DNA from: Phoronis australis
Taxonomy: Eukaryota > Animalia > Phoronida
Length of the DNA stretch: 64,000 nt
NCBI GenBank assembly: GCA_002633005.1
Contig: NMRA01000175.1
Span: 594,734-658,733, forward strand
Reading direction: 5' to 3'
Under the pieces are notes generated by a model. That model worked only from the letters and a program-made list of their open reading frames with translations. It ran no database searches and was not told the DNA's origin. Below, one piece after another: positions 223 through 62,300 of the stretch. The number at the start of each line of letters is the position of its first letter. The stretch's first letter is position 1. Made by a program: the position numbers and the translations under genes.

Positions 223-800
223 AATTTATAGTCACAGTTCAAAAGAGAAATAGGTCTCCAATTATCTAAAGATAGTAATTCCTCGGACTTTTTACTTTTT
301 GGGATTAACGTGATTACGCCTTGCTTTTGAGAACTGGACATGTGACCGATTCCAAAGCTGTATGTGACGCTCGCCAATAAATCGTCTTTAATTACCTTCC
401 AAAAGGTTTTATAAAATTCATAGCCGATGCCATCATTACCAGGCGTCTTGTTAGGTTTTGTCTCTAACAGGGATTCATACAATTCTTCTTCTGTTAGGTT
501 TTTTTCTAAACCGTCAGAATCTGCAGGAGATAGCTTTTTATGTATTGGTAAATTAAAAAGGTCGATTGGATACGTTCTTTCGATGTTGCATTCTTCAATA
601 TCGGAGTAAAGTTTTTTGTAATAGTTCACTTGCATGTTCCGTATGCATGCTGCATCATGTATAATTTTAGCACCATCTTTAAGGGCGTTAATATGTTTTT
701 GCTTGCTGTGGCGCACCTCTAGGTTTTTGAAATATTTTCCATTCTCGCCTTGTTCTGCCCATTGTGCTTTACTATGCAGGATCGAGCCCTTAATTTTATG
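221..800 (-). pseudogene. Truncated non-LTR retrotransposon (L1/Tx1-like) ORF2 fragment, N-terminal part of the RT region
   Basis: Translation contains KAQWAEQGE..KYFKNLE, KTPGNDGIGYEFYKTFW, QGVITLIPK and NWRPISLLNCDYK, all LINE ORF2 motifs. It is cut at ~220 by the HINE 3' end. Confidence 0.85.
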
Positions 801-11864: not shown

Positions 11865-13509
11865 TTTTTATGTGCCCACATATTTATATGTGGTCGCATA
11901 TTGCCGTCATTTCTGTCTGGCCGTCCCGCGTCCACAGCTGTATCTCCTAAACCCCTCACAGTATCTTGATGAGGTTTGGCAGATGTGTTCCTATTAATCT
12001 GACGACGGATGACGACAAATTTTGGACCTTTCTTAGTGGCAATTCTGGTTTTTTACTCTTACCTCTGTATCTTTGGAGGTCCTCAACCAATTTGCATAAA
12101 ATTTAGCAGTTAGGCATCTATTAGTGAGCTGATGCTACCATCCCGTTTTCGAACGGATTCGAGGTAGTTTGTGCCACCTAGTGGCTATTTTTTCTGTTTT
12201 CGAGTCCGTTGTTTGGTGTCCACCATTCTATCAACCAAACTGCTCTAGGGATGATTTTGAAAATTGGCATATATGTTCTTGCTGTGAAGAGGGAGACTGA
12301 CGATGATTTTCCGATGACTTCAATTACTGTGGCGCCTCCTAGTGGCATTAATTTTATTTTTGCGTCCATGGCTCTATCTCCTAAACCCTCTGCAAGATCT
12401 TTATTAAATTTAGCCATGGTATTTTAAAATTTATGAACTTGACAACAAACGACAATGACTTTCGCATAGATCGGACTTCGGGTTTGCCCCCTAGTGGCAA
12501 TTTTAGTTTTTTGATTTTACTTCTGTATCTTTGATGGTCCTCAACGTATTTTCATAACATGTAGCAGACAGGCATCTATTAGTGAGCTGATGCTATCCTC
12601 CCGTTTTCAGTTTGATTTGTGATATTTTGCGCCACCTAGTGGTAATTTTTACTGTTTTTGATTCTTGTTATTTGGCGTCTGCCCCTCTATCAACCAAACC
12701 ACTCTAAGGATTATTGTAGAAATTAGCATGTATGTTCCTAATGTGAAGAGGAGGGCTGACGATGATTTTTCGATGACCTCAACAACTGTGGACCTCCTAG
12801 TGGCAGTTTTTTACGCCCATGGCTGTATATCCTAAACCTTCTGCATGATCTTTATTAAATTTAGCCAGTATATTTATATGAACTTCACAACAAACGACTA
12901 CGACTTTCGGATGAATCGGACAATCGGTGTGCCCCCTAGTGACAATTTTAGTTTTTTTTTAATTTTACTTCTGTGTCTTCGATTGTCCTCAATGGATTTT
13001 CATAAAATTTGGCAGATAGACATCTATTAGTGAGCTGATGGGATCCTCCAGTTTTCGGTTTGATTTGATGTATTTTGTGCCACCTAGTGGCCATTTTTAC
13101 TGTTTTTGAATCTTGTTATTTGGCGCCTGCCCTCTGTAAACCAAACCACTGTAAGGATGGTTGTGGAAATTGGCATCTATGTTCCTAATGTGAAGAGGAA
13201 GTTTGACGATGATCTTCCCACAACTCATCTGTTGAGGTGCCTCTTAGTTGCAGTTATGTTCTTTTTTTCACCTGTAGCTCCTAGTGGCAATTTCATTTAT
13301 TTTGTTTTCCTCGGTTTCTCAGAAGTTCCTTGACAGATTTTTATGAAGTTTGCTAAATAGCTTTGATGACACGTACCAGTTTTCTGATTGGATTTGACAT
13401 ATTTTGCATCATCTAGTGGCCATTTTTATGTTCCAAATAAACACCCCTAGAAGCACACCGTTTGTGGTGCATTCGTGGACGTATTTCAACGCTTTGCGTT
13501 GCTCTTGTT
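11865..13509 (+). mobile_element. Diverged complete HINE of the same family as 4570-6557
   Basis: The 5' end is TTTTTATGTGCCCACATATTTATATGTGGTCGCAT. The same three-subunit array is present with CCTAGTGG cores. The 3' end is GTGGACGTATTTCAACGCTTTGCGTTGCTCTTGTT. Confidence 0.8.
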
Positions 13510-25600: not shown

Positions 25601-28600
25601 GTAATAGAAATTTTCGTACTGTAACCAATGCTTTCTCATATGAAATGAGATTTCTTGAAGGTCTCGAAATTTTCCTTTTGCCTGATTCAATTGAAAGTGT
25701 GAGCAATGGATAGACTTTCTAACTGTGGTTTCATTTCTGTACCGAATTTGCCAAAATAACTGTTTAATTAGCTGTAATTAGCTTTCAAAAATCCTATGTA
25801 CCATGGGACAAACAATGTTTCTTCCATGGGGCATTGCATTTGAATGTCCCATGGGACGTTTCTTTAAATGTGCCACGTGACAATACGAATGACACAGCAT
25901 GAAATTACTGTAAAAGTTGAATGTTCTCAATGTAATTCCTTATTCTGTAGATGGCGAAAATTGCCCGAAGTACGATGGATGAGTTGGCTGATAAAAATAA
26001 GTACCTGATCTTACCGAGGATATCTAGTCCATCCCACTTCCATGAACTCTGCCCTGTGCAACCACGTAGGGGTGGGAAAAAGTGAGTGTTGCTGACATAT
26101 TCAGAATGACGTAAATATTTTACTTGAAGTCCCAATGTACATGCTATTACCCCCATCTATGCAAATATTGGGAGGCGGACTGATGCTTTACGTCAGTAGC
26201 CTCTGAATAAAGATTGTCTTATTAGCGAGGTATTCAAGGTAAGACGGTAGTCACCTTAATTTCAATCAGATTTTAATTGCTAATATGTTTAATCTTTTTC
26301 TTGACTATTTTGACATGTGTGTAACTTTTACTTGTAATCACTTTTATTTTGGTCACTGCTTTACCATGACAAAACACCTCGCCCTGTGTTTGCGAATTGT
26401 AAACTATGACACCGGTCTCAGTATGGTGGTCCAGGATTTTATTCAGCTTTTGTTGATTGAGATCCATGGACTGTTCTTAACATTACGGGGTTTTCCCGTT
26501 GCTCCCAACTTGTTCGATTCTATAGCCCAACAACAAGTTGGGAAGTGTACCCCCATAGCCAATATCTTACACGACTGATTAACTCCATTCTTCCATTCAG
26601 GGTTGGAGGACCAGCTTTCTTTTGTTTGATAATTGCTCTAATCTTCAATAAGACCGTATCTAGCCTGACTGGGCTGTGCTGTTAAAAACAAAAGTTAAGT
26701 TATAACATATTTGAACATAAACCATTAGCATTTCTGAAATCCTCATCAAATGGTGATCATGTTTAGTTTTTGAATCGCCAAAATCGCCCAACTGCAACCG
26801 AAGTTAAGATGATCTATTCTTTCCGAATGTACCACTTCACTCTGGGTTTGACGGTGTTCACACGTGGCCTGTATTAAGCCTGGTAAATAATTGGCGTGCC
26901 TGTTGTCATACCAGACAAAAGACTGTTAACCAAGAAGCTAGATGTTATCACACGCTCAGAACCCCCTTCATCTGGTAAAGTCACTGAACGGGAAAACGCT
27001 GTCATGACAGAAAAGAATCACAATCAAGGCTGCATTTTTAATTTGTGTGTTGTTTAAGATGACATCTTTGAAACTAACACCTGTCTGATCTGTCCAGATT
27101 GTGTGTGGTATTAGTGTCGCGGAACACTGTCGAGGACCAACAGTACAGAGCCACCTTCAGGCAGTATGCGGAGACATACAGCTCGACATCCAATAGAGTG
27201 CGCTTTGCTTACATCTACAATGATGTACAGGAAGAGTTTGTTGGAGCTGTGATGAAAGGTCGAAACCCACCAAGCGATCATTTGCAGGTAATTATAATAA
27301 TTTTCAATCTTTGTTTCTCTGCTGTTGAGTGACATAGCTTACCCCGTTTAAAATGTCAGTACTTGAAAGTAGGTGTAATACACTACATGTTGGATGTGAA
27401 ACAGCAGCAATGAGAAATATTTTACATGCTTCTTACATCGTTCAGACCTTGCACTTAATTGGAAAAACCCAGTGAAATTTCTATCTCATAGTAGTTTTAA
27501 TTCGTATTATAGATCGTCATCCTGTTCCAATACGATGAGAACAAAATCAAATACGACGTGCTGGACAATGGCTGGTCCACTGACCTCACCTCGACTGCCC
27601 CTAGTGACCAGCTGACCTCCACACTGGACAAACTGACCAATCAGAAGACAATAGACTTTCCATACAAGATTAAGCTGCCGACCATCATAGACGAACACGC
27701 TAATGTAAGTCCTTGTGCTGTGAAAAGTCTTGCATTTTAATTGCAGCTTCAAACTGTCTTCCTGAAACCACTTTGAGGTTGTGATGTGGTGGTGTAAAGT
27801 TAGAGTACTGGACTGAGAATCTGAAGGTCCCTGGTTCGACCACTGTTTGCGCCAACAAAAAAGAGTGGTCTAATTAATTCATCCATGTTGGTTGTGCCCT
27901 GTTTCAAGTGGCAAATCATTTGATTTCTTGTTGCATGATAGTAGTTTCAAGCAAATCCTATTCACGCGTGTGACAGTTAAACCTGTTTTGTTGGATCTGA
28001 ATAGTTTTAGGTACATGCCATGGGTCTAATAGTTTTAGGTACATGCCATGGGTCTCATGAATTCTATATTCATAAACATGTCAGTTTCCGCTCTCCTCAA
28101 AATAATTGCAAGCTGTTCAGACAGGCCCCTTACACTGATCACCTGGAACCATTTTTATGCTGTATTGATATATAGCTAAAACCGAGTATGGGAGCTAGAG
28201 ACTTGTCTCCAGGGTCTACCAATGTGCCCCAGTGGGGCTCGGAACCCACGACCTTGAGTAAAGAAACCGACACTTATCCCACCGTTCTTATGTTGCAGGG
28301 TATTTTTGTTCGTGTGTGGTTGAAATTGGCTGATTGGTCGGGCGTGATGGTCGACTATTTCTGGCGCTTTGACGCTCTCACCGCGATGACTGCCATATTA
28401 TTTATGGTCATGTCCTGCTTCATTATGTATATCGGGGCCAGTATTGAGAATGAGCAGGTGGATGGGACTAAGGCTGCCAAGGTAGCTGCCAAGAAAAGGT
28501 AAGTGTTATGGAATGCGTATGTGGTACCACTGACGTAGACTCGGAAAGTGTGGCACCACTATTATGGGGTTATCTGGAAGATTCTACACCCTTGGTTTTC

Positions 28601-34656: not shown

Positions 34657-36190
34657 TTTTTATGCACCCACTGGCAGGTGGTCGCATATTGTTGCCGCTT
34701 TTTCTGTGTGTCCGGTTGTCTGGGTGTCCGCTCTAAAGACTCCTTGTTGGATTTTGATGAATATAGTAGCAAAAGAGTGTAAAGCATCACTAGAAGAACG
34801 GTTCATGCCTCTTTTCAATCTGTCCCGTCACCGAGTAGGCATGGCTTTTTTGGAAGAGGGTTTCGGATGATATCTAACGGATTGACAGATTTAAATGAAA
34901 CTTGGTACAATGGTATGGGATATCAATGGGCCAGCATCATTAAAACTTCAGGTGGATTTGACTGCTTCAGCACTTGCTAGTGGCCATTTTGTTCTTGACA
35001 AGGGGCTTTTCAAGTGTAGTTTTGGGCGGAAGAGCATTATGGATGATATCTAAAGAAACAATTGTTGGATTTCATTGAATCTTAACACAGAGGTATATTA
35101 TGAGATTGCGCTGGCACCATTTGATTTTTGGGCAAATTTGACAACTGCAGCGCTTCCTAGTGGCCATTTTATGTGAGAGCATTTCTGGATGATATGTAGA
35201 GAACCGAGTGAAGGATTTCAATAAAAGTTGATACAGAGGTATATGATATAAATGTGTGAGCACTGTCTATTAAATAATTAGACGGATGGATTTGACCATT
35301 GCAGCACCTCCTAGTGTCCTAGTGGCCATTTTGTTCTCGTCAATGGGGCTTTTTGAGTGTTGTTTGTGGGAAGAGTGTTTCTGGATGATATCACGAGAAC
35401 CGACTGACGGATTTCGATAAAACTTGACACACGGGCATGCGATGTCAATGTGCCAGCACCATTTAACTTTCAGATGAATTCAACCACTGCAGCACCTTCT
35501 AGTGGCTATTTTGGGAGAAGAACATTTCGGGATGATATCTTTTGAACCGATTGATGAATTTTAATGAAACTTGATACATAGATATGTGATGTCATTGTGC
35601 CATGACCAATAAATTTTCGGACCGATTTGACTACTGCAGCATCTTTTAGTGGCAATGTTGTTCTCAAGGGGTTTTCATGTGTTGTGTGGGGTAATAGCAA
35701 TTCTGGATATCTAAAAACACGATTAACTGTTGTTAAGGAAACTTGACACAGACATATGTGATGTTAATTCGCTGGACCCTTCGCTTCTGGGGAGCCATTT
35801 GCCCTCTGCAGTATCGGGACACGGTGCTTTTTCAGTTAGTGTTGTTTGGGGGAAGAGTATTTTTGGATGGTATCTAGAGAACCGATTGACGGATTTCAAT
35901 GAAACTTACAACAGTTGTTTCAGTATATGAGGACCATTTGGCAGCACCATTTTATTCTCGACAAAGGACTTTTCAATTTGAAGTAGTTTAGGGGAAGACA
36001 GCTTCCGGATTATTTCTAGAGAACTGATTTTGAGATTTCAACGAAACTTGACCCAGAGGTATATGATGACGATGTGCCAGCACCATGATTTTTGGGCTGA
36101 TTCGACTACTGCAGCTCTTCCCAGTGGCTCTTAGAAACATAACTTATGCGATGCACCGTGGGTGCATGTCAATGCCCCAGGGATTTCTTG
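34657..36190 (+). mobile_element. HINE of a second family, with a degenerate ~160-190-bp tandem array
   Basis: The 5' end is TTTTT-ATGCACCCAC..GTGGTCGCAT followed by a GTCC/GTCT-like microsatellite remnant. Subunits GATTTCAATGAAACTTGACACAGA..CAGC(A/G)C..CTAGTGGCCATTTT repeat. A perfect 3' subTIR GTGGGTGCAT lies at 36158-36167, followed by a weak hairpin and TTCTTG. Confidence 0.7.
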
Positions 36191-40700: not shown

Positions 40701-43700
40701 TAAAGGAGAAAGGGCATCTAAGCACAGAATGATTTAAGCATTAAATAAGCAAAGCAAGTTATTTTTCAGTCAATGGCTATCGACAGAAAACCAATCACGG
40801 CTTAATCTTGACAATGATCCGTTAACAGCAAACAACGTAAGACACTTCAGTACTGTCTGTTGGAAAAAGTTAATGGGAGCGGGGGAAACCAGTGTCACAC
40901 TGAAATATTAGTTAAGTCGACAGAGCCCTCTGTTGGCAACTCTGAATACCTCAGCTTAGTCTTCATTTGTTTGGGGTAGAGCTGAAAGTTTCACATTCAA
41001 AACAGTTCAATTCCAGAATATCAACTGGATGGGCCAACCTGTCATTTCTATGTTCTCTTATTCATATGTTATACTTGTCAAATTGTAGTCATGGTTATAA
41101 AATTATCAACTAGCTATATGTACTAAGTAAGAAGAAGTATAAGTCAAACCTGTAGTTATTTTGCTTACTATAGGAAACAAGTGAATAATTTGTTTGTGGG
41201 ATCGTCAGTACTACTCAAAATATTTGCTACAAAGGTTCAGGTGCACAATGAAATCATATGAACGATGTGACTATGAATTATGTCGTGACTATCATAGATC
41301 TTGCACATTCTCATGAGAACACCGAGGGGTCAAACCATTGTCTCTTTCTATGACCTGACAGACGGAATAATAAATAATCTTTTCTCAATCAAATGAATGT
41401 TGAAACTGCAAATCCAAGGTATACCTGTCTCAAGTCTAAAAGCCCAAAACATAGTGGGCAAACTTAATACGAACTAATTGACTGATAAAGGCCGTACTAA
41501 AAGTCACAAAGGCACATTAACCTTTTAGTTAATACCATGGGATTTGTAAGCCGTAGAATACCTACTGGTGGCTATTCACAGAGAATGTGCAAGAGACTAA
41601 ATTATTCAACCAATCCCTGGCTAATGTGCAATTATGGAACACTTTTATTTACTTCACTCAAGACCATAGTCGCCTGGGTCAATTTTCTTTGCTTCAACTG
41701 TTGAATAATGTTAAACATGAACAATGTTTGAAATAAACACCACATACATTAAACCCAGAGAAAATTGAACTGTGATACAGTTTAAACTGACCTAAAACAT
41801 AAGATGCCATTGTAATCCCAAATATTTTCATAATCAAGAATATACAATTCAATGATATGTAGCTCACACAATCAGACACTCTTAGTCTCCTTTCTTCTGA
41901 TGTGCAGGAATGAAGTAACAAACCAAGAGACATAACAAAAAGTCTACTTGTATATTTAACGAAGTTTGTGTAAACGAAGGGCTACTACCGAATATAGTAA
42001 AAAAATGCAACTTACTGTAACAGATTGGAGCAATTAACAACAGGTTAAGTTCAAATAGTCTTCAAATTTTATTCCAAAAATAGTTTAAAAAATAAAATAC
42101 ATTAAATTTCTGACAACAAAAAGCTTTTTTTGCTAAAGGATTAGGCACAACATGTTTTATAAAAAAACGATATCCCTTTGGTAATTAAAACGGCAACAGT
42201 CATTCCAGTTTCATCTGATAGTGAAATAGATGTCAATATGTGATACTTACATCCTGGAATGTTGACTTTGTTGGATACCAGCACATCGGCCTCCACAGAG
42301 GTCATATTGACATAAAGTCCTTCCGCGTTATTCTGAAACACAACATCAAGGTAGCATTTATGCAACTGCAGCAAAAACAATGAAATGTCTAACAGCATAT
42401 AGCATTAGATGCCAAAAAGAATCGCACAATCAACCATTTGCATATAGACAAATATAAATAGTTTTTTTAATTGAATCAGAATAGTCAAAATATTTACAGA
42501 ATGGCAAAAAAGAGATTTCTTTGCAACAAGAAGACCAGAAATACAAACCATGTAGTACAATATTGTGGAGGAGACTGCTTCATCCAACTTTAATCATGGT
42601 TTGCAGTTTCAGGTATTTAGTCTACCACTGACAAGGTTTTCCCTCCAATGTCAATGGATTACCCATCCTCTCCCATTGCCATCACCTACCGTAGTGTACA
42701 TGGCATAAAAATCACCCGAATCCTGTAGATCCTATGAATTCTTTCCCTCCAGCTAAATGGGAAAGACCCATAAAGAGATTTTTTCCTAAAGCACAAAACT
42801 GAAATTCATGTCGTAGATTTTTTCTTTTCAATGCCACATTTTCCACAGGGAAGTGAGTCATAATTGCAAGTTTTACAAAGCAGACAATAGACCAAAGTTG
42901 GTCTTACCATGAATGAGTCATACAGCGCCTCTCCCAGTGCTTCTCTCACGTGATCATCAACTATGGGGAATGTACGGCAGAGATACTAAAATGAAACGCA
43001 GAGTTTATGACGTGTATGTCGGAATGTGAACAAAGAATGAAATGAATAAAAAAAGAAAAAATGATTCATAATGAACTTAAGGCAACTATAAGCCCGAGTT
43101 TCATCCAAGAAGGAAATTTTTGATTTAGTAAACTATTGCTACTTGTTCCTTACTCAACTGAGGAGTGATTTTTGGGTTTGCAGAGAACTGGAAATTTTTA
43201 CTTATTGAGACCATGCTCGGCGGAGAAGAGACGCAATGAAAAGCCAAATTTTAGGGCTATATCTAGAGTAATAATGACTTGTCTATTCATTCAAAGTCCT
43301 GAAATCATCAAATCTTCAATTTGACTAAGGAACACTTTGAGACTAATTTCACAACATTAAGAAGTTTAAAACAAAGAAGATTTTTGTGATAGAGGGCTGG
43401 TTCACAATGCTCCTAAGAACGCTTAAAAATTCTGCAAAATTTTTAGATTTCATGATCTCATATTCTCTGTGTGACTTCGACCTATGACCCCACTCACCTC
43501 CACCGTAATACAAGCTTGTCTCTGACTGTCAGCGTAGTCCTGGTTACCCATAGTGTACAGCAAGTTATAGACAACTCGGTTCTGGATCAGCTTCTCAGCG
43601 AGTTCAGTTGACTCTCTTGACAATATCCTGTAATAACACTAAACAGTTAAGTGAAGGAGATATTGACACCAAATATGCTTCATACAAGACAAGCTAATGT

Positions 43701-46700
43701 TTTATGTGAGGGGAACTACATAACCATGGGATAGAGTTGAGGTCTGTTAACCTGAAGAAGAGAGGAAATCCCAAGATCTGACAATACTATTATGAGCTGG
43801 CAATAAACCCACGCTTCCTGTCAAAAACCAACTTTTGATTTAGGCCACTTACTGTTAGGAAATTGATATTGTCTTGTTTGTTAACCAGTTTAGAAGGGGT
43901 TTCTGGCCTCAGGAAGAACTGATATGTCATTATATTTATGGGACAAACTCATGATGTGACCTAATATTTTATAAGTTTGGTGTAAAGTAATGATAAACTG
44001 ACAGTTCTTTCCAAGCTCAGGTATCACACTAAGAACAGCAATTTGAGACCAATTTCATAAAAGTTACTCACTAACTAAGGGACCTGAACTAGAACTTGTT
44101 TTTTGACAGAAAGCATAGGTTTAATGCCACTTTTCATGATTGATTTGCATTAAAAAGTTTTTTGATACTGAGTAGGATGCATCTATAATCTGGTGCAATA
44201 ACATTGTGAAGTTGGAGTAACTGAGAAGCTTAATATGTGACTATTCAGTAAAACTTGCATTCAACAGAGAAAGGCAAAATCCATCTTCTGTGAGGGACTA
44301 AGAGCGAAAACCAGTACACCCCTTCCCTGTACCACTGGAATTTGTGTGTTGTAAGCCAAAATGGAACAAATTTTACAACTCATTTGAACGTGAGATGGAA
44401 CCTCTCCCAGAGATGAGAGTACATAGCCTCTTACCCGACAGTTTTAGCAGCTGCTGCCTGCTGTACAAAAACTGGTAATGGAGCACCGATCTTTGGTACA
44501 TCAGGGTCTGAAATTAAATCATCAAGGTTCACAATTCTGTGTTTAGCTGAAGACAAGTATAAACTGATAGCGGCACTGGAGGTCCAGACAACAAACCTCA
44601 ATATTCAATAATTTCGAATTATGTTTCAGCACAAAATTAATTCACACAGTTTATGGCATCTTCAGTTTGTACTGGATAGTTTGAAGAGGTATCAAAACAA
44701 AAAGAAAACTGAGTGGCTACCAAACATTTTTGACTAGAATATTACCATCCAGAATCTCAGGTTTTTTAATCATGTCTTCTTTCGCAGGTCGCAGAAGTCG
44801 CACCAGGCCTTTCAGAATTTCATCTTGTATTGGATATTTCATCAAGTCTTTGATGAGCTCAATAGCTGAAAAATTAATTTTAATTACATGACTGTCTTCA
44901 ACTACAATTATCACAAGTGGATTAAATTAAGCAACTAATGAGTGGACATGCATAATAACTAAATATCTACACAATTACAAGCCACATAATTGTGAATGTA
45001 GAAGGCGTGCAGAAATTATATTTAGGATAAAAGTTAAGTAAATTCTCATTGTGTTTTCATTTTAAGCAACTTTGCTATTTTTTCTTAAAAATCCCAAAGG
45101 TTTTACTTGGTTTTATGTAAAAGGAAAACTTTAAAAACAACTATCATTTTGGAGAAATACTTTCATGTAAATCTGATCAACCACTTATGAGATGCGATAT
45201 TCTGAAATAGACTGACATTTTCCTAGGGTTACACATAACCTTAATTCGATTTTGCATGTTATTCTAAAAAAATACAAGAAAATAGAACAAAACCCACCTT
45301 CAAACTGTACTTCCAGATGCAATGTTCTCAGAAGGTTCAATAATGGCTCAACAATGGTAGGATTCACTTGACCAACAATAGGCTGAAATGGAACCATATT
45401 AACCAACTAGTAAGCTGTTGGAGTTGCGGAATTAAGACAGAGTGATTGGCATTATTATACGACAGTCCAGTTAGAAGCCATGGCTTAATCTTTTCTCCTT
45501 GCCAACAGGATACACATTGCTTGTCATGGCCATCTCACTAAACACTTTAAGAATGTACTTATTACCTTGTAACATCTGAGATAATAGCTTTTATCAGTTT
45601 AATAAAATCTGTAATTTCATGTTCAAGACATTTAATCAGCTTGACAGGTAGGTGACAACATGTTCACTGAATGTAACATCTACTTGTTTTTAGCACAGAA
45701 ATTTTTCATTACCATCTGAAAACTACAAATACATACTATAGTAAATTTTGAACAACCACATTAAGAATCCGAAACTTTCACGAGTGTCACAAACATGAGG
45801 TGTTGACTGCCAAGCTTTTCAGAATATGATATTGACAAGTGGCAGTTAATACAAACCTGTACAACTCGAAGGCTCTGTGCTGCCATCTGCTGGGCTTTAG
45901 GAGAAGTAGCGGGAAGGAGTGCAATCAGACCTTTGTAAACTTGAACTTCGAACTTTGGGTTTCCTTGAGCTAAAGCTAGGAGCAAGACTTTGGCTTGTTC
46001 TTGGGTCTCCTCAGATTTAGATTTTGCTAGACACTCGGCAATGGCACGAATACCTAAACAGACACATTGGGATATAATCTCATTAGCAGTGAATGCAATG
46101 AACGCAAAGAGTGACATAATACCTTCCAAATAGCATTAAAATGATAGTGAATCTAAAATAAGATATAATTGGCAATGTAAGAATTCAAGAAATACATTAA
46201 ATGATTAGGAAACTTGAACTAATCAACTGTAAGCTGAATCCTGTTTTGACAGAATAATTTGTACAAGACTAAAAACCAGGTTTTAAAACATCAGGGATCA
46301 CCAAGTTCAAAACTGTCGGTGATTAATTCCATCAGTGTTTACCCATGCATGCATGCATTATGGACTACACCAAGTATAGTACGCTGGTGGTGCAGTTGTA
46401 CATAACCATACCCGCTAGGCTGAGGGCAACAGGTGTCACTCAGATACAGGTTTGGATCCAAGATCAAGGTCAAAGCGAGACCTGGCAAGTGACTGGCAAA
46501 GGGGTGCATTTCACATTAGTTACCTTCATTACAGCCATATACATACAGTGTAGGAGGCTTATCTATGGGTGTCCAGATGCCCTGGAAATATGCCTCGGTA
46601 TGATTTTCATAAACTTCAGCATTAATAAATTGTGTGACAGTCAATTACCATAGCTTTCACAGATCAGCTCTTTATATTTCCTGCCAGCCTCTGCAACACA

Positions 46701-49700
46701 CTGTAGTAATCTTAATGCTTGTTCCTTGTTTTCTTCTTTGGCTTGTTTCAGGCCAATTATCTCCAGTGTCGTGAGTATTCCTCCAACTTCAAGAAACTCT
46801 GCTAGAAACTTGTGTCTGTAATTCAACATCAACCCAAATGACTAAAAACAACAATGAAAACAATACCTGATTTCAATGCATATATCTTAAGCACTGGTCA
46901 TACAAATCAGTCCCTGATTTTGGCTATAGTTTTTAAATGGAGTCAAATTTGGCACTTCTGAAATATTGTTAGCAAATTAAGGCAATGCGTTAATTGTACA
47001 CGGAATGTGACTAAGTCATGAATCTAGATGCCCTGTAGACATCTTTACTGCCACACACAAAATCCAAAGGAAGGTCAAGTCACAATAAGTGCACAGCACA
47101 AATTATACAACTGTGAAGTTTTGAAAATTTGTGAAAAAATCTGCGCACTCAAAACTAAGAAAGATCAAAATAAATTCATTTGGATCAATTGTCAGACCAA
47201 TGCTTTGCTTAATTCACTTTGGTTCAAATCTGTATATACCCGGTAAATATAAAAAGTGGACAAAACAAAATCTTGCACAAAGTTGGTGTCAATAAAACTT
47301 CTCCTCCTTGCAAAAAGAATGTTGTTTGTTCATTATTCTGTACTCGTGTTTGTGGAGTGATCATGTGTGTCAACTTTGAGCATTATGAAACTGAGCGCTA
47401 TTTGTTGGTCAATCTCTGTTTTTGCCAATTCCTCAACCACTGTTCTTTATTCACAAGATTCTTCACAATTCATAAGAAATTACAGATGTAGTTGCACTGT
47501 TAGTAATTTTGAGTAATTTACTACCAGTGAACTAACACTCTGATGAACAGAAACTTTATTTGATAGGTGAATTTGTAATCATCTCTCAAAATGTATCACT
47601 TCAAAAAATCAAGCACAAAGCACATGCGTGTGTTATAAGTGTAGTTTTGAAATCATCGGCTGATTTTTCATTGATAACATAAGTGGGCAAGAGACAGAAA
47701 ATGACGTTCATTAGATTGTGTTTCTTTTAAACGGTCATAATGGACAAAGTAGCTGTTGTCATTTGAGCATCTGTTACAAAAACATTTTTTCCCATGCCAG
47801 TAAGGCCTGTGGGTGGCTGTGCGAAACTTATATGCAAACCACCTAGGTAAAAAGGTCGAAAAAAGGGCAGCATTTTCGATATAGGCCCATGACCCTATCG
47901 GCACTAGTCGGATATAATGGACCCTAACTTATTCCAAATAAATCCACTAAATGTGGGTCTAAATGAATGATTTTGATATCGTTGCATTCCTCAGACATCT
48001 GGCTATCCGTACATATCCACCTTACAACCCTCAATTACTCCGTTCTATAACTACGCTATTCCGAACTCGGTCCACTTTAGCCACGCGCATTGTAAAATCG
48101 GCAGCNGCAGTTGAGGCAATACAAACTTTACCACAATTTTTGAAAATACACCAAGGAACTCTGAAGACAGAGAGGTAAACGTAAAAATTTGCCATTAGGA
48201 TGCACAGCGGTAGTCAAAACGATTGTGCCTATATGCAAATTAATACACGGATCTCTACAGGAGACATTACCTGAGCTTATATGCCAACTTAATTAGGTGC
48301 AAGCGCCAATATTCTAACCACTTTGGTAAAAAAGGCTGCGAAAACTATTTCGGTTATAGGCCAATGGGCCTACAGGCGCAGCAATACAGTACGCACGGTT
48401 GGACGTGCTTGATTTTGATGTAAATTTTGCTCTGAGAGGACCGCGAACAGAATACAAGACAAGGTAGGCCTATGGCATTCAGTCACTATACATAGCTAGC
48501 TAGGTAGGTAACACGTAGCCCCTCGGCTGGCTACATACATCGGTTTCTGTACTAATCTAAACACGCGTACTTTAAATGAGTGATAGCCAAAATACGGTCA
48601 CCAAATAAGTAGTTTTCATCTCGCCAAGAATACATTTTACACTAAAAATTGTCTCTCAAAAAAGCGCTTACTTTCTCCAGCGATCCTTTCTGGTTCATTA
48701 ACCTTGATGAACCATGTCTATGGGAGTTAATGTGAATTTGGCAAAGAATTCCAAATCCACTTTTTTGTTGGTCTTAAATTTTTTATGTGCTTGATTACCA
48801 AAAAGTATTTCAATTGATGTCATGCGAGTTAGGCGACAACAAGCCTGAGATTGAGTGAAGCGTGTGAAACTTGCAAAAAGTAGCATGGGATAATACCCGG
48901 GGAAATTTGCAAGCTTGTGTCCCTTGGACTTTTGTGAAGGTCAGCAAGTGGGATTTTGAGGAACTTCAGCAAAATGGCACCTGTCGAGTGAACCGTGACA
49001 GACTTTTTTTACAGTAGTCACTTTGATTTGCCACGGTTTCATAATAATGTAGTAATAGCCGAGATTACCCGTCCCGGGGATCGAACCAGTGACCCCATAA
49101 AACCGGCAAGCATCCTAACCATTCAGCTAATAGGCAATTGCCCGTTAGCGAGTAGCTAACAGAGGCCTATATGATTCACCGGAAGTACATATACACATTC
49201 CACCCTTTCCTACGGAACGGGCACGCCACCAGGAAGGTGAACACCAGGATGTCTCGCATACAGGTTATCAACGTCCCTTGGTACCTTTACCACCACAACA
49301 CAGGTGAATACAAGGTAGTCTCTCATACAGGTCCTTGACTCCTGGAACCTTCCATGTGCGCCGTCCCGAGGTCCGCGGGTACTAGTTAGCAGTACTTCAT
49401 CGGTAGATCATACTGTGCCATTTGTAGTAATAGCCGAGATCACCCGACTCGGGGATCGAACCCGCGACCCCCATAAAACCGGCAAGCGTGCTAACCATTC
49501 AGCTAATAGGCAATTGCCCGTTAGCGAGTAGCTAACAGAGGCTCATATAATTCACCGGAAGCACATCTACAACAGCTAACAGACGCCCATATGATTCACC
49601 GGAAGCACATCTACAACAATAATAAAATCAATAGACAGTGACCAGCGATATTTGCTTATTTTACTAAACAAGCACTCACCCACTAGATGCCATTAAAAAT

Positions 49701-49954
49701 ATCTTTATTGCTCTCAGCTGTTCATTCAGTGCAGTTCCCAACATATACGTTAAACGTAACCAGGCAGTCAATCGAGTAAGAAACAAACTTGCAGCTTGTG
49801 CAAACTCTTCCTCTAGTTCAGGTCCAGTTTTGTTTTGATTCTGTGTGATAAAATCTTCTAAAATTTGTCTTCTCATGGATTTTGAACCTTTATCCCACTC
49901 CTGGAGCAAGTTCATAATTCTGGAAATTTGACTTTGTTGCTTAGCAGAACCCAT
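37765..49954 (-). CDS. ARMH1: Armadillo-like helical domain-containing protein 1 (C1orf228)
   Basis: Exons (minus): 49954-49680, 46815-46649, 46053-45857, 45382-45298, 44865-44746, 44507-44435, 43627-43498, 42985-42908, 42332-42251, and a tentative last exon 37784-37765. All are GT-AG and in phase. LQEWD..KTGPELEEEFAQAASLFLTRLT, EFLEVGGILTTLEI, YKELICESYGIRAIAE.LAKSKSEETQE and GNPKF..QVYKGLIALLP match ARMH1 as I recall it. The terminal exon is uncertain. Confidence 0.88.
39655..39830. repeat. Degenerate (GAT/GAC/GGT)n trinucleotide microsatellite
   Basis: Low-complexity GATGATGACGATGACAAT-type run. Confidence 0.75.
49048..49571 (-). mobile_element. Miniature non-autonomous LTR retrotransposon (TRIM) with tRNA-like sequence inside both LTRs
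   Basis: Direct repeats 49048-49195 and 49423-49571 are each bounded by TGTA...TACA, with a 227-bp internal region. On the minus strand, a PBS-like AA-TGGCACAGT follows the 5' LTR and purine-rich GGAAAGGGTGGAATG precedes the 3' LTR. The LTR contains A box TAGCTGAATGG and B box GGTTCGATCC. Confidence 0.8.
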
Positions 49955-50472: not shown

Positions 50473-51626
50473 ATGGCCGAGGACGACTTGGATTACCACG
50501 TCTGTTTCCCTTCTCCTGATCCACCATCGGGGGACGAGTTGTATAACGACTTTGCAACAGTGCAAGACGACACAAGGAACCCAGTGATTATTCTTCTTGG
50601 GTGGACCGGGTGTGACGATAATCAGTTGTGGAAATATAGTTCAATTTATGAAAAGAAAGGGTCAGTACTTGTTGTACAACTACAAGGTGTACTAGTACTA
50701 GCTAGTGGTACACTACTCGTTGCCATTAGTTGATAATGGTTGAATTTCATACAGAGCAGGAGATGTGTTAGTGTTTGCAAGCTACTAATCTAGGAAGTCA
50801 ATTTTATTGAATTTGTGGAGAGTTACTAAAGAATTGTGTCGTCAAAGTGCAAGCTGTGCATGAGTGTGACTGGCTACATTTGCTGTATTAATTATTATTA
50901 TTATGCGAATATTTCTATGTCTAGATTCTCTTGTTTATAATGGCATCATTTCAAGTACTATTTCTTTATTTCAGATATATAACTATCCGATACACCACAC
51001 CAACCAATGATGTGTTGTCAACGCCAGCCCAGTTGAGAAAGAAAGCCATCAAGGTTCTTGAACTTCTGTTCGACCTTAATCTCGAGGACAACCCTCTGTT
51101 TTTCCATGTCTTTAGTAATGGTGGTGGACAGCTATATCACTGTATTGTGGAACTACTGTTGACAAGAAAAGAAAACAGAATGCTACAAGTCCACGGGACT
51201 ATATTTGACAGTTGTCCATCAAAAAATCAGTTGCGTGTTGCAGGAGATGTCCTTATGCATGGATATGACGCAGGATTTTGTAGAGTTTTGGCGTCATTTG
51301 TGATCAGCCTCTTTCTCAGTTGTTGGTTTGTTTTCCACTATGTCTGGTGTTTGTTTTCCAAGAATAAAACGTGGAATATCCAACTGTGGGACTCCATTAG
51401 GGATCACCATTCGCGGTGGCCCCAACTGTTTCTGTATTCCAAGAAAGACAAATTAGTGAAGTATAGTGATATTGATGAGCTGGTAAAGTGCCGCACATCC
51501 CTTGGAGTGGATGTGAGCGCCACCTGTTGGGAGGATTCTGCCCATGTACAACATCTACAGGCTCACGTAGAATCGTACACTCAGCAGTGTTTAAGTTTTG
51601 TAGACGACTGTACACCTAAATACTGA
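50473..51626 (+). CDS. TMEM53: Transmembrane protein 53 (DUF829 alpha/beta-hydrolase-like); 2 exons 50473-50660 and 50975-51626
   Basis: Motifs PVIILLGWTGC.D..L.KYSSIY, FFHVFSNGG, GTIFDSCP, RWPQLFLYSKKD and WEDSAHVQHL are present. There is one phase-2 GT-AG intron. Confidence 0.92.
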
Positions 51627-56396: not shown

Positions 56397-59300
56397 TTAG
56401 AAAAATGCCTGTAGTCCGGTGATAGCCCTGCCAAGAATTAGTGCATGAATGTCATGGGTTCCTGAAACACAGGATGAAAATATTTAAAATTTGTATTAAA
56501 AGCGTACACTCTAGACCAAGCATTCTGTTGGATAACACACACACAAGTAAGTGTTTTATGGCAGAAAGCCTTGTTCAAATACACGAGGAATACCTGACCT
56601 ATAACCAAATACTTTCCACTTAACAAATAAATTATTTGCGATTAAGGATTGCTTCTTAGGTTTTTAGCAAATTTAAAAAGCATAAGAAGTCTTAAAACAT
56701 TTTTATTACCAAGATCTTTTCAAGACAAGTTTTTTCAATGCTAAAATGTCTGAAACAATAAAAATTTAAACCACACCAAACCTTAACATGATTTATAAAT
56801 CTGTCTTCAACCTGACGGCAGTATAAAAACAGAAGCCCAGAGCTAGTAAATAAAAATTGACATACAATGTCATGCTTCCTACCTTCGTATGTATTGACAG
56901 CTTCTAGGTTCATGACATGACGAATAACGTGATACTCGTCTGATATTCCATTTCCTCCCAGCATATCTCTTGCCGTCCGTGCGATGTCTAGTGCCTTGCC
57001 ACAAGAGTTCCTCTTGAGCATACAAATCATCTCAGGACATTCCCTACAGGACAATTACGTGATGTAGTGAGGTAAGGAAAGCAAGACGGATAAATATGTT
57101 TAGTAAATAAGCCATTAAAAGCGCATTGAACATACTCTCTGTCAAAAATAGCCTATTTTTTATTCAATATAATAGATTCGGTACAGATCACACAATTACA
57201 CAATACAATAACTTTTTTGTTTAGTCAAGGATCAATTAAGGTCAACTTACAGACGTGCTGATATGTACAAGGTAATTTAACATTAAAAACAGATAGAGGA
57301 TATGATTCATTCATAATAAACAAAAAAAGGCCTTGCCAGCACTCTATAAATTCACCGTACTTCACTTTGTTTACATATATGTACCGTTCAGTGGAAATGT
57401 ACAATGCAACTTCCTTTTTAAAAAGTGCAAGGCAGGGATTTTTGCAGCTATTGGTTTAGACCACTAATAAGTGTAAAACTTATTTCGTTCCTTATTCAGA
57501 TTAAAAGTATTTAATGGGCTTTAGATGAACTGGCAGTTCGTTGCTGATTGAGATCATGCATGGCGCATAAAGCAACCACCAGGGTCAAACCAATCTGTTG
57601 AGCATAGTTCCACGCAACAGGGAACTGCTATAATTTCTTCTCAAGTCCAAAATTGTGTCTAATTTGAGTAAGAACAGGACAGTAGAGACCAGTTCCACAA
57701 CAGTAATTAAGAGTTTATCATAATAACTAAAAGTTAAAACTGGTAAATTAGTTTAATTTGTAGATAGAGGGTTCATGTTATATGTTTATGTTTGTATTAT
57801 ACTAAAGATGAAACGGTTTTGCATGTTGTCTGCAGTTAGATCACTAAAATCCTTGAAAGTAACCAGCGTAAGATCTTTTGTGACTACAGAGTCAGACAAT
57901 AGGTGGTCATTTTTGCACTTGCATCATGAGGAAATATTTCAAAACATTTGAGTATAAATCAAACAGCAAATGGTGGAAAGTAAAATTGAAACTGCTGTTA
58001 ACTTTAACATGCTTTAGACAAAATTTTGCTAATAAATCCTTCTGAAAAATATTGGAAAAAAAATTATTAAGTTTCAGGAGACATTCTCACTTACTTTCCT
58101 TCATCCTTCAGTCGTCCAAGCTGCAAACAGGCATTCAGTCCTATACTGATTTCAGTATTCATGTCTGCCATTTTCTTCTGAATCAGCTGGTTCTGAGCTA
58201 GAGGTCGGCCAAACTGGATTCTGGGAAACAAAGCGTCAAAAAGTTTTACAACACAGTGAATATAGATTGACCACGAACATTTCACACTTACCTATAGTGC
58301 CCTGACAGTAAAAAAGAAACAAATATCACGGTCTACAACAGGCTTAGAGCAATCCAACGAAAAATGCTACTATACCCGAGTTCCAAATTTCAGGATGAAT
58401 AGACGAGTATGCCTATTTTGAGCAATCTTAAATAAGATCAAACGAAAAATTCCTGAACACGTAAAAACGGAAAATAAAAAGAGCTGTCAACCTGCAAATT
58501 AGGATTCGAACACCAATCAAAAACTCAGAGAAGGCTATGTGGCCTAGTGTGATGGTGCCCGCCTTCTTTACCCAAAGTCATGGGTTCGAGTCCCACTGGA
58601 CCACACTGCTAGACCCTTGAGTCAGGTTTCTAGCTCCTCAGCTCGGTTTTAACTAAATATTATAAAGCACAAAAATATTTCCAGGTGATCAGTGCAACGG
58701 GCCCACATGCGCACGTCTGGCACAACGTGTACCAGACCGCCTGCAATTATTTATTTTTTATTAATCAAAAACTCAGCACTGACAACGGTATTTTTCAACT
58801 ACAGCCAGCTTAATATAAAGAGAGGAGCATATTGAACCTAAAGAAGCATAGACCAAAAGCTGAACTTATCATTGATACCAAACACATGTTTTAAGATGCT
58901 AAACCACTGGCTATGATAGACTCGCACTGACCTGTCTAGCGTATACTGCCTGGCTGCTTCAAAACAGAATTCTGCCGCTCCCAGTGCACCCCAGGAGATC
59001 CCATACCTAGCGCTATTGAGACATCCAAACGGGCCCTGAAATATGAACAAAAGTGCAGACCAAAAGAACAGCTGTTTGAAACTGATGTAATTTGTTAAAC
59101 TATTTAGCATGTGATATAGGCAGCATAAATGCTTCATGAATCAAGTTAAATTGACCTGTTCATAGAACGAATTGTCTACCAGCGATGCGACAAAAATTAC
59201 ATAACAAAAGAGAATGAACTTTTTGGATTTCAAAATTGAACCATAAACGGAAGAACCTTCATTCCGAGACCTTGGGCTCATAAAATGAAAAGTACAAAAA

Positions 59301-62300
59301 CATGAAAATAAATATACAGTAAGGTAAGCAAAAATGATCAACTCAGGGCTTGGAATGACAAATGGCGAAAGACGCGGAAATTTTTACGGCCCGGAACATG
59401 CGCGCAGCCAGCCTTGAAAAAGTTGGTGTGGACCTTTTGCCGACAAAAATCGAAAAAAAAACCCCCATACCACCTCCGGAAGCGTGCGTCTGCGTCTGTC
59501 TTAGCTCGTCTGCCACTCCCACATCCAAACATTTTTGGCTGCAGAGTACTAGTATTTGTCACCGCGGTTTAAAATCACACGAGCCACCATTGAGGAAATC
59601 CACCACGCTATCCCAGATGCCCCGGCAATGTTGACAATTTATGTTCCTCAGAAACATAAAGAGCAACTTCCGCTTTTCGAGGTGAAAGTCGTCGGCAACG
59701 CGGCGGTAAGAAAGAAATTTGCCGCGGTAATTTTATACCAAATCCGATTTTTTTACGTGGAAATATAATAAAATACGCGAACAGAACATTTGAAAAAAGC
59801 GGAAATCCGCGTTTCCGCAGAAAATTCCAAACCCTGTCAACTGTAGCAACAGCATCAACCTATGTGGTTGAGATGACATTACTACTAAATGCTTAAACAA
59901 CACTGCCAATCCTGTTTCAGCTATTCCATCATAGAAACACACCCCCAATCCAGTGGCATTAGGCAGTAGATTCTCTTCTGGTACTTCCACATCCTCCATT
60001 ACTATCATTCCTGTGATGCTGGCACGGAGAGAGAACTTGCCCTCAATTTTTGGAGCTGTCAGGCCTTTCATTCCCTTCTCTAGGATGAAACCTTTGATTT
60101 TCCCATCGTGGGCATCAGATTTGGCCCAGATAATAAACACGTCTGCAATCGGGGAGTTGGTAATCCTGAAATCAAAAATCAAATTTTTATTAATTTTAAC
60201 AAAACCCCATAGCAAAAATTCATATTAAAGGAGTGAACAAACTTAAAAATAAAAAACATAATGTAAATGCCAATATTTAATACTAAATGAAGTGAGATAT
60301 AACATTTTGCTACTCACCATGTTTTTGATCCATTTAGTACAAACACTTTCTTTGCCTCATCAAAAACGGCTTTGGTCTCCATTCCTCCAGGGTTACTCCC
60401 ATGGTTTGGCTCCGTCAGACCAAAACAACCAATTAAATCAGCTTTGGCTGAAAGAAACATACAAGCAGACTACCCTTGATTTACCTTTATTTACCTATGA
60501 ATTCCAATCATTGTTTAATGCTAAAAAGCGCAGGAGAAATATATTTCTACCAAGGCTTTGCACAGCACCAAAAATTGTGATTTCACATGGGTGTCTAAAT
60601 AAAAAACTAACATCAGGTGTCTAAAAATTATCTCAAATTTGACACTGCACCATATAAATTGAGGGTATTCTAGAACACTAAAAAAGTGCTTGAAGGGGTA
60701 AGATGTCCTTTTAACTTTTGGTAAAACTGAAACCGATATATAGTAACTTGAAAAAGTGATGCATGAATCAAAAACGCAGCCTCAACTCATTTTTCCCAAG
60801 CAGAATGTTTCATTGCAAATACCCCAATACACAGTATGAAGTATGATTAAAAAGACAGCACATCACTTGGTAAACCGGACTATTTCCAAAATAGTGTTGA
60901 CAAGTAGCGACAAGGAACTCATGTTTATCAATTGCTAAATGCATTTAAACACTTTTATCAACATGTGATCATCACTGTGAACTCTGTAATATTGGTCTTT
61001 AGTGCATCACCAAAGTCTTACAGAAAATTAGTAAGTAACACAATTCGCCCATTATTTTTTTAGATGACAATCAATAAAACCATCCCATGAATGTACAAAA
61101 CCAACAGCAAAAGAAATTTAATGATTGTATTCAATCAACAACATGAAAAAAAAAACAACTTTTTTTTAAAAACTGTTCACAATCAATGATTTGACAGAAG
61201 TCATTTGCGATGTTACGACATTGAAAATAGACAAACAATAACTAATTACCACACCTAGTTTTGCCAGATATTTGTCCTTTTGTTCTGTGGAGCCGTACAT
61301 GTAGATGGGATGCATGACCAGTGAGGACTGGACACTCATGGCCGATCTGTACCCACTGTCCACTCTGGAAAAAACAATAATGTGAGAATTTTATTGCCAT
61401 CAAATGAGCATTTGTAGTAAACAAAATCTTTACAAAAGGGTTTGTGTGTGTTTAAAATGAGACATTCAGTCACCAGGAGGCAGTCATTATGCCAAACATG
61501 GGCATGTAACAGTGTTAAAAAAGACAAACATTGGCATATTTCCAGAACAACTCAGTCACATGGGTGTTGCCCAAGATGTTGCATTGATGTTGACTCTGTC
61601 ACTTAACGTGGTGAAGAGTAAACAATATAAAATTCATTAGCCACAGGTGAAGAGACCGCGTGTACTTTGAGAGCTGAAATTCTCTTTAGATGAACGTTCA
61701 CAAAGAAGGGAGAAAAAGTCTTGACTGACACAAAAAATCGGGTATGAATGAATAACCAACAGGACCACTATGTAAATTTGGAAAATACTAGTCAGAAATG
61801 AGCATTGACTGTAATTTAAACAAAAAAATCTCATCTCATCCAAAGTTGGTGAAATTTCTGAGCAAAAACATCACCTTTTGCTCCTAAGTCTACCACAACT
61901 AAGTTGCTCTGATTTCTGTCACATTTTTTGTTAACTCTGAACAACAATGAACAACTTTTACGAGGTTCTTGCCAAATTTTCAAAAATTTCAGAAATAACA
62001 ACTCCTGCTACCAACACAGACCTCACTATCCTACCTCTCAATTTCCCGGGCGAGCAGTCCATACGCCACAGAGGAAACGCCCGCACAGCCGTACCCCTGA
62101 ATAGTTGGCCCCAACACGCCCAGATCACCCATCTCTTTCATTATTTCTTTGTGGAAGACTGGAAGACAATGAGACCACTCGCTGTTAAGATCTGACAATC
62201 TCAAATACATTCAGCATTTCATATTTATTCATCATGAGTTCACATACAGTGCTCACAAAATCGTCGATGAAAGCACCTCAACTCTATCTCATTTGACGAA

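What the first reader, a model, noticed from the sequence alone, without database searches (positions are those of the whole stretch)
49048..49615. Tiny LTR retroelement whose LTRs embed a tRNA-like Pol III promoter (SINE/LTR hybrid TRIM)
Seen in sequence: two ~148-bp direct repeats with TGTA..TACA ends enclose 227 non-coding bp. On the minus strand, a TGG-initiated PBS-like site sits 2 nt after the 5' LTR and a polypurine-like tract abuts the 3' LTR. Each LTR carries TAGCTGAATGG (A box) and GGTTCGATCC (B box) in the same orientation as the PBS/PPT. The internal region has an imperfect ~50-bp repeat, and the last ~44 bp of the right LTR are tandemly duplicated (to ~49615). Established knowledge: plant Cassandra TRIMs carry 5S-derived promoters in their LTRs, and I recall tRNA-in-LTR TRIMs (Helenus-type) being described. 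Inference: this element is transcribed by Pol III from inside its LTR and mobilised in trans by an autonomous LTR retrotransposon. It may be an undescribed family in this lineage, and repeat annotators would probably call it two SINEs. The TSD is unclear (ATAA/ACAA).
Basis: partly seen in the sequence, partly recalled or inferred. Interest (0 to 1): 0.85.

Follow-up and report, generated by a model that had tools for sequence, protein, structure and literature searches.

The report
Helenus-type tRNA-promoter mini LTR retrotransposon
A 571-base gene-less repeat with tRNA-type promoter boxes in both terminal repeats sits in an intron of an invertebrate gene; it is one decayed copy of a many-copy family that fits the 'Helenus' mini-retrotransposons described in 2024, is likely transcribed by RNA polymerase III and likely moved by another retrotransposon's enzymes, so it is a new family of a known kind.

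Summary
The feature is real, with corrected ends. It spans 49048-49618 on the minus strand: a 152-bp 5' LTR carrying a 44-bp duplication of its first bases, 225 non-coding bp, and a 150-bp 3' LTR. The corrected ends give a perfect 4-bp target duplication (ATAA/ATAA). Read data show a dispersed family with fixed ends, LTR-internal junctions in other copies, and a tRNA-Ser-type primer site that this copy has partly lost. It meets Kojima's 2024 Helenus criteria. Five diagnostic words match none of his published sequences, so it is likely a new family, in a non-conchiferan lophotrochozoan. Pol III transcription was not shown: RNA reads lie on both strands and mostly run on into unrelated sequence. 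This scan has noted Helenus-type elements before (119 notes, at least 21 genomes), none resembling this sequence. One extra lead: a hairpin-palindrome-T module just before the A box also appears, by eye, in published bivalve, nemertean, coelacanth and fish Helenus. That hints at one ancient animal lineage.

The parts
49048..49618 (-). Whole element, 571 bp, non-coding (longest ATG-started frame 55 codons)
   Evidence: end at 49048 from loose-end piles, end at 49618 from the TSD
49423..49574 (-). 5' LTR, 152 bp, TGTTG...CTACA
49575..49618 (-). Duplicate of LTR bases 1-44, only at the 5' LTR and inside the TSD; 3 substitutions from the 5' LTR, 4 substitutions plus 1 gap from the 3' LTR
49048..49197 (-). 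3' LTR, 150 bp
49198..49422 (-). Internal region, 225 bp, with no run of three T on the sense strand
49411..49420 (-). Primer-binding-site remnant starting TGG, 2 nt after the LTR; 10 letters shorter than in other copies, which match the tRNA-Ser(AGA/UGA) 3' end
   Evidence: indel rows at 49413-49416; tRNA-Ser sequence
49198..49210 (-). Polypurine tract, 12 of 13 purines, directly before the 3' LTR
49495..49505 (-). A box, 5' LTR
   Evidence: no variant at 30% or more listed
49452..49462 (-). B box, 5' LTR
   Evidence: the only common variant (49454) keeps the consensus
49119..49129 (-). A box, 3' LTR
49077..49087 (-). B box, 3' LTR
49509..49536 (-). Hairpin (6-bp stem, 5-nt loop, 49536-49520) plus 10-nt palindrome GGCAATTGCC (49518-49509) just before the A box; identical in the 3' LTR (49160-49133)
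   Evidence: similar layout in published animal Helenus by eye
49475..49478 (-). Only T4 run of the LTR, between the A and B boxes (3' LTR: 49099-49102); candidate weak Pol III terminator
   Evidence: role inferred
49226..49332 (.). Internal imperfect direct repeat, 40 nt twice, 78% alike, spacing 67
49044..49047 (+). Left target-site duplication ATAA
49619..49622 (+). Right target-site duplication ATAA (a 7-bp match also fits because the site is a TAA repeat)
49680..49954 (-). First coding exon of the host ARMH1 (C1orf228) gene; the element starts about 60 nt into the following intron, in the gene's orientation
   Evidence: spliced reads

Best explanation
This is a decayed, intronic copy of a many-copy, non-coding LTR element of the Helenus type, whose RNA is likely made by RNA polymerase III from the A and B boxes in the 5' LTR and is likely copied and inserted by the enzymes of an autonomous, probably Gypsy-type, retrotransposon. 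Steps: (1) shown: fixed LTR ends, PBS, PPT, a 4-bp TSD at this locus, dispersed copies, and A/B boxes without disruptive common variants. (2) Inferred: Pol III starts about 15-20 nt upstream of the A box (spacing recalled), reads through U5 and the internal region, which have no T run, and stops inside the 3' LTR, leaving a short terminal repeat. (3) Inferred: host tRNA-Ser primes the minus strand, the PPT primes the plus strand, and a borrowed integrase makes the 4-bp duplication. (4) Inferred: the 44-bp duplication arose by slippage during plus-strand strong-stop synthesis, which would give a duplicate that starts at LTR base 1 and is present in the 5' LTR only. (5) Inferred: this copy is old and dead, because its LTRs differ by 8% and its PBS is shortened. 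Odds: Helenus-type TRIM about 0.93; Pol III makes the genomic RNA about 0.6; Gypsy partner about 0.75.
For: Loose contig ends with unrelated flanks (agreement 0.36-0.46) pile up at 49574 (69, 56 and 19 contigs in X1, X2, X4), at 49423 (17, 23, 9) and at 49048 (18 and 14 in X1, X2). In X1, 1555 contigs lie on the 662-nt stretch, spread from over 99% to under 90% alike; summed depth reaches 294,495 on the LTR against 35 on the neighbouring exon (the tool warns this is no copy number). The LTR-to-PPT joint appears in 8, 3, 3 and 1 contigs of the 4 runs. One 416-nt contig from a second study holds part of one LTR, the internal region and a second LTR. Other copies carry 10 more letters at the PBS, which then fits the 3' end of human tRNA-Ser over 14 nt (read by eye). 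TSD is 4 of 4; chance at this spacing is 0.56%. Animal Helenus have 4-bp TSDs and share PBS types with Gypsy elements (PMC10886601). None of the variants at 30% or more falls in the A box or the B-box core. The three copies of LTR bases 1-44 are about equally diverged (3, 4 and 5 substitutions).
Against: No discrete transcript was seen in 3 stranded RNA runs. LTR reads lie on both strands, with more antisense (102-264) than sense (61-119). 65-70% of laid reads run on into unlike sequence, and no start or end pile lies in the element. A T4 run sits between the A and B boxes and would be met in the 5' LTR too. The lack of T4 downstream is not significant (P 0.50; lack of T3, P 0.03). TSD length rests on one locus in a TAA repeat, where 7 bp also fits, and I chose the end from 4 candidates. 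ARAGORN and Rfam see no tRNA. No autonomous partner could be sought. The host's own tRNA-Ser was not available.
Confidence: 0.85

Rival explanations
1. It is a Helenus-type TRIM, but the full-length RNA is made by Pol II (host read-through or an unrecognised U3 promoter). The A/B boxes give only a short RNA ending at the T4, or act as a TFIIIC-bound insulator.
For: Element RNA is on both strands and mostly embedded in other sequence. The T4 lies between the boxes. Several published Helenus LTRs have T4-T5 runs after the B box, before the PBS (for example Helenus-1_LiLo, -1_NGe, -1_PiNo, -1_BaPl). Kojima states that the promoter is not validated.
Against: This family has no T3 run from the T4 to the PPT (277 nt, P 0.03). 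On the sense strand the LTR:internal depth ratio is 1.5-2.1, against 3.8-13 antisense (by hand; weak, since a few host transcripts dominate antisense). Cassandra is reported to make its RNA by Pol III from inside the LTR.
Confidence: 0.3
2. Two tRNA-derived SINEs in tandem, or a one-off local duplication of a SINE.
For: LTR-only copies seem to outnumber the internal part in summed depth. An unrelated tRNA-SINE-like repeat occurs in the window.
Against: The boxes sit in the 3' half of the repeat, after 69 nt of other sequence. Both ends are fixed TG..CA with no tail. Internal region and LTR are joined in contigs of 4 of 4 runs. PBS, PPT and TSD are present.
Confidence: 0.02
3. The tRNA-like LTR segment supplies its own reverse-transcription primer.
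For: Earlier scan notes raised this for diatom elements (unchecked).
Against: The longest match between the complement of this copy's PBS remnant and either LTR is 6 nt. The longer PBS of other copies fits a cellular tRNA-Ser. Kojima found no such complementarity in Helenus.
Confidence: 0.02

Closest known systems
Animal Helenus TRIMs (TRIMp3), Kojima 2024, PMC10886601. Read: main text parts 1-5 of 6; supplement parts 1, 5, 6, 7, 10 and 11 of 11, plus word searches of the whole file; figures not held.
   Same: Under 1 kb, non-coding, two TG..CA LTRs with A box (TRGCY..YGG) and B box (GGTTC), PBS to a tRNA 3' end 2 nt after the LTR, PPT, 4-bp TSD, no functional tRNA. Sizes (LTR 152, internal about 235 in intact copies) are close to the Ser-primed mussel families Helenus-2_MyGa (144/226), -2_LimFor (141/251) and -2_MoPh (156/268). 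Hairpin-palindrome-T layout before the A box.
   Different: None of 5 diagnostic words from this family occurs in the supplement (line breaks can hide a word). The PBS word differs from both Ser types in Fig. S2. The host protein is only 70-73% identical to Lingula, Lineus and bivalve orthologues. The T run before the A box is reduced to TATT, and there is no T run after the B box.
Cassandra (plants) and Ajax (nemerteans), TRIMs with 5S rRNA-derived LTR promoters. Seen: Kojima 2024 text; passages of PMC7215508. Kalendar 2008 was not held.
   Same: Pol III promoter inside the LTR of a non-autonomous LTR element; for Cassandra an 18-nt terminal repeat is reported.
   Different: Type 2 (A/B box) promoter here, not 5S-derived; Ajax has a 5-bp TSD.
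tRNA-derived SINEs (SINE2)
   Same: A and B boxes at tRNA-like spacing; dispersed high copy number.
   Different: The boxes are internal to a TG..CA repeat; no tail; PBS, PPT and a short TSD are present.

Membership tests
Helenus (TRIMp3) | Shorter than 1000 bp and non-coding | tested here: met
   571 bp; longest ATG-started frame 55 codons
Helenus (TRIMp3) | Two LTRs with fixed TG..CA termini | tested here: met
   loose-end piles at 49048, 49423 and 49574
Helenus (TRIMp3) | A box (TRGCY..YGG) and B box (GGTTC) inside the LTR | tested here: met
   no disruptive common variant
Helenus (TRIMp3) | Sequence similarity to a tRNA beyond the boxes (identifiable parent tRNA) | tested here: inconclusive
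   ARAGORN 0 genes; no Rfam tRNA hit; only a 15-nt T-arm-like match to tmRNA at E 1.6. Censor and tRNAscan-SE, used by Kojima, were not available.
Helenus (TRIMp3) | PBS complementary to a tRNA 3' end | tested here: met
   Met in other copies (indel rows; tRNA-Ser; read by eye against the human tRNA); only a remnant in this copy
Helenus (TRIMp3) | PPT next to the 3' LTR | tested here: met
   12 of 13 purines; similar tracts at the joint in other contigs (table 5c)
Animal Helenus | 4-bp TSD | tested here: met
   ATAA/ATAA at this one locus; 5 and 6 bp fail, 7 bp also fits; paired flanks of other copies could not be read
Helenus (TRIMp3) | Interspersed multi-copy family | tested here: met
TRIMp3 | Transcription by Pol III from the LTR | tested here: inconclusive
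   Ordinary RNA-seq showed no start or end pile and both strands; library selection is unspecified
Animal Helenus | Autonomous Gypsy partner with the same PBS | not testable with these tools
   no genome held
A named published Helenus family | Sequence identity to a listed family | tested here: not met
   0 of 5 words in the supplement; no match by eye in parts 5-7; Repbase and Dfam not searchable
SINE2 | tRNA head at the 5' end and a LINE-like or simple-repeat tail | tested here: not met
   A box at LTR position 70; fixed CA end

The most novel reading that the evidence does not exclude
Most animal Helenus descend from one lineage older than the protostome-deuterostome split, or one spread between phyla, marked by a hairpin-palindrome-T module just before the A box. 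The module is how a Pol III unit works as an LTR. Pol III starts inside the hairpin's second arm in the 5' LTR, so no hairpin forms there. In the 3' LTR the whole hairpin is transcribed and turns a weak T run into a terminator. This leaves a short terminal repeat that carries the palindrome, a possible dimerisation or strand-transfer signal. Shared ancestry alone is about 0.5 likely; ancestry plus the switch function is scored here.
Probability: 0.22. Interest if true: 0.65.

Novelty: new member of a known kind. Interest (0 to 1): 0.33.

Why it matters
As a family, it widens the known host range of Helenus to another lophotrochozoan lineage and adds a further Ser-type primer site; that is incremental. 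It is a high-copy repeat that annotators could file as a SINE. The upstream module matters more if it holds. It would argue against the proposed separate origins of molluscan and fish Helenus. It would also give a direct test of how a Pol III unit can start in one LTR and stop in an identical one.

Tried and rejected
No whole genome is held, so genome-wide BLAST, TSD counts and the partner search were not possible. Inside the window there is no second copy of the element. ARAGORN and Rfam found no tRNA; the Rfam rows at E 1.6-9.9 were treated as chance. A 24-nt LTR pattern found 0 stretches in metagenome and viral contigs, as expected for an animal repeat. No indexed holder was on record as RNA; that blank is not evidence. 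No empty-site joint (49047 to 49619+) was among the rows shown, but 76 joint rows were hidden and contigs do not show absence. The 44-bp duplication was not shown in any other copy among the rows displayed. The ends at 49571, 49574 and 49615 were rejected for lack of a TSD. Self-priming was rejected. The ARMH1 tree is the quick tree only, since the careful search did not finish. It used 55 of the 120 listed homologues. It places the host outside the gastropod-bivalve clade (support 96), in a weak group (83) with Owenia, Lingula and nemerteans, and cannot name the phylum; no phoronid or chiton name was among the hits. Scan notes had nothing by sequence, by place, or for the hairpin-palindrome words. 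Literature searches: Helenus+TRIM+retrotransposon since 2024 gave 3 listed papers, of which I read only Kojima's; TRIM+Phoronis+retrotransposon gave 1 unrelated paper. No age in years is given because no substitution rate is known for the host.

Full report
1. Observation. The two repeats are real. Read on the minus strand, the order is: 44-bp duplicate (49618-49575), 5' LTR (49574-49423, 152 bp), two A residues, a TGG-started PBS remnant, 225 bp of internal sequence ending in a 12-of-13 purine tract, and the 3' LTR (49197-49048, 150 bp). The LTRs differ by 12 substitutions and 2 gap columns. With the end at 49618 the flanks are ATAA and ATAA; the three other ends tested give no duplication. 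A random 4-mer match at this spacing occurs 0.56% of the time. A 7-bp match also fits, because the target is a TAA repeat. Each LTR has an A box and a B box, 32 nt apart in the 5' LTR. The pair occurs nowhere else in the window and in 0 of 200 shuffles, while the A box alone is chance-level. There is no tRNA cloverleaf.

2. Is it a family? No genome is held, so I laid public runs of the same coded organism on the locus. Contigs end on unrelated flanks exactly at 49574 (69, 56, 19 contigs in X1, X2, X4), 49423 (17, 23, 9) and 49048 (18, 14 in X1, X2), with flank agreement of only 0.36-0.46 (tables are cut to the best-supported rows). In X1, 1555 contigs lie on the 662-nt stretch: 257 at 99% or more, 408 at 95-99, 513 at 90-95 and 377 under 90% alike. 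Summed depth is up to 294,495 on the LTR and 5,600-34,000 on the internal part, against 35 on the adjacent exon. The tool warns this is no copy number; hundreds to thousands of copies is my inference. The LTR-PPT joint stands in contigs of 4 of 4 runs, with varied linking letters. One 416-nt contig of a second study holds part of one LTR, the internal region and a second LTR. This rules out a SINE dimer or a local duplication.

3. Primer site. Other copies have 10 more letters at 49413-49416 (one X5 contig and the deepest X4 contig; one of the inserts in 17 of 23, 14 of 26 and 16 of 20 RNA reads). Read by eye, those copies match the first 14 letters of the human tRNA-Ser(AGA) antisense probe in PMC13478228 and the tRNA-Ser templates in PMC3299991 (passages only). 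The window's copy is shortened there and is likely unable to prime. Self-priming by the LTR is not supported (6-nt best match).

4. Host context. The element lies about 60 nt inside the intron after the first coding exon of ARMH1, in the gene's orientation. RNA reads splice cleanly at 49680 (48 and 27 reads in X6, X7), and intron depth beside the element is 0-5 against 41-64 on the start of the exon in those runs. No effect on the gene is visible. The best homologues are lophotrochozoan: ARMH1 73% to Lingula and Crassostrea, 72% to Owenia, 70% to nemerteans; TMEM53 44% to Lingula. The quick tree excludes the gastropod-bivalve clade but cannot name the phylum. The host is not Lingula anatina or Lineus longissimus. 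A phoronid, another brachiopod or an early-branching annelid remain possible (inference).

5. Expression. The three RNA runs are stranded, as the exon control shows. LTR depth is 61-119 sense and 102-264 antisense; 65-70% of laid reads run on into unlike sequence; no start or end pile lies inside the element. Most of this RNA is therefore read-through of host transcripts. The internal region is relatively richer on the sense strand (LTR:internal 1.5-2.1 sense, 3.8-13 antisense; by hand from six LTR and four internal bins), which is a weak hint only. Pol III transcription is neither shown nor excluded.

6. Mechanism. Shown: structure, fixed ends, dispersion, and boxes free of disruptive common variants (none at 30% or more in the A box; the B-box variant at 49454 keeps the consensus). 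Inferred: Pol III transcription from the 5' LTR across a 277-nt stretch without T3 (P 0.03; without T4, P 0.50), priming by tRNA-Ser and the PPT, and integration by a borrowed Gypsy-type integrase, as Kojima argues for animal Helenus from 4-bp TSDs and shared PBS types. The 44-bp duplicate starts at LTR base 1, occurs only at the 5' LTR, lies inside the TSD, ends at the first arm of the hairpin, and is about as diverged as the LTRs (3, 4 and 5 substitutions among the three copies). From established LTR replication (recalled), a slip during plus-strand strong-stop synthesis gives this pattern. A later tandem duplication that happens to end at the terminus is the alternative.

7. Comparison. Kojima 2024 (PMC10886601) defines Helenus as TRIMs under 1 kb with tRNA-derived LTR sequence, found in six animal phyla with 4-bp TSDs. 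The element meets the testable criteria; similarity to a specific parent tRNA was inconclusive. None of 5 diagnostic words occurs in the supplement, and no family in the bivalve, brachiopod, nemertean or vertebrate lists matched by eye. Supplement parts 2-4, 8 and 9 (fungi, wasps) were word-searched but not read. This scan has 119 earlier notes with these words in at least 21 genomes, one in a likely annelid, and none like this sequence.

8. An extra lead. Just before the A box this LTR has a 6-bp hairpin, a 10-nt palindrome and a T-rich spacer. Common variants there fall in the loop (49530) or keep a G-U pair (49520); one palindrome variant (49516) is common in run X8 only. By eye, a similar layout, with different palindromes, stands in 33 of 51 bivalve, 3 of 3 nemertean, 2 of 2 coelacanth and 13 of 14 ostariophysan fish LTRs. 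It appears in a different sequence form in 2 of 2 sturgeon-group LTRs, and in 0 of 3 Lingula and 0 of 1 ctenophore LTRs. Wasps and fungi were not counted and there is no statistical control. Word counts back this in part: 'gactgagcta' occurs 5 times, in a coelacanth, a pearl-oyster and three mussel LTRs; 'ctttagc' occurs 39 times. The paper's text has 0 hits for 'hairpin' or 'palindrom'; its figures are not held and may show the region. Kojima speculates separate origins for these groups. In yeast, an adjacent hairpin makes a T4 run a moderately efficient Pol III terminator (PMC9278858, abstract and one Discussion section), which suggests the 3'-LTR-only termination switch. Against it: the T run here is only TATT; most published runs are T3; and several module-bearing families have T4-T5 after the B box, which would stop Pol III before the PBS. 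In this family the fold with U3 included (-22.5 kcal/mol) differs from the fold without it (-13.2) and closes about 10 nt before the T4, so the T4 could play that role. This is untested.

9. Verdict. A real, high-copy, likely unlisted family of a published kind; this copy is old and probably dead. Novelty: new member of a known kind. Interest 0.33, raised a little by the shared upstream module.

Noticed in passing
window 48600-48950: A second multi-copy repeat in the same intron, next to the element (summed contig depth up to 5,856 against 35 single-copy); type unknown.
   Followed up: no
window 58564-58703 (+) and 28124-28265 (-): Two 81%-alike copies of a tRNA-SINE-like repeat with a B box at 58583, unrelated to the LTR.
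   Followed up: partly
window 42246-49954 (-) and 50473-51626 (+): ARMH1 and TMEM53 genes head to head, about 500 bp apart; likely a shared promoter region.
   Followed up: partly
window 78-818 (-): ORF fragment that looks like the LINE endonuclease-to-RT region by recalled motifs; no Pfam hit. Bases 1-220 recur identically at 6338-6557.
   Followed up: partly
window 4668-6164 and 12034-13432: Tandem arrays of about 450-bp units, 76-93% alike; another degenerate array at 34842-36132.
   Followed up: no
window 56692-60228 (-) and 22617-25356 (+): Exons of a glutaryl-CoA-dehydrogenase-like gene (Acyl-CoA_dh_M) and of a DnaJ/thioredoxin (DNAJC16-like) gene (name recalled from motifs).
   Followed up: no
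run X1 record 6, laid on 49412-49546: A contig with two LTRs and 210 unlike letters between them: a sub-family that shares the LTR but has a different internal region.
   Followed up: no
PMC10886601 supplement, Helenus-2_PiNo and -3_PiNo LTRs: By eye the closest published layout to this LTR: same GTTAG..CTAAC stem, AATGG A-box end and similar bases around the B box.
   Followed up: partly
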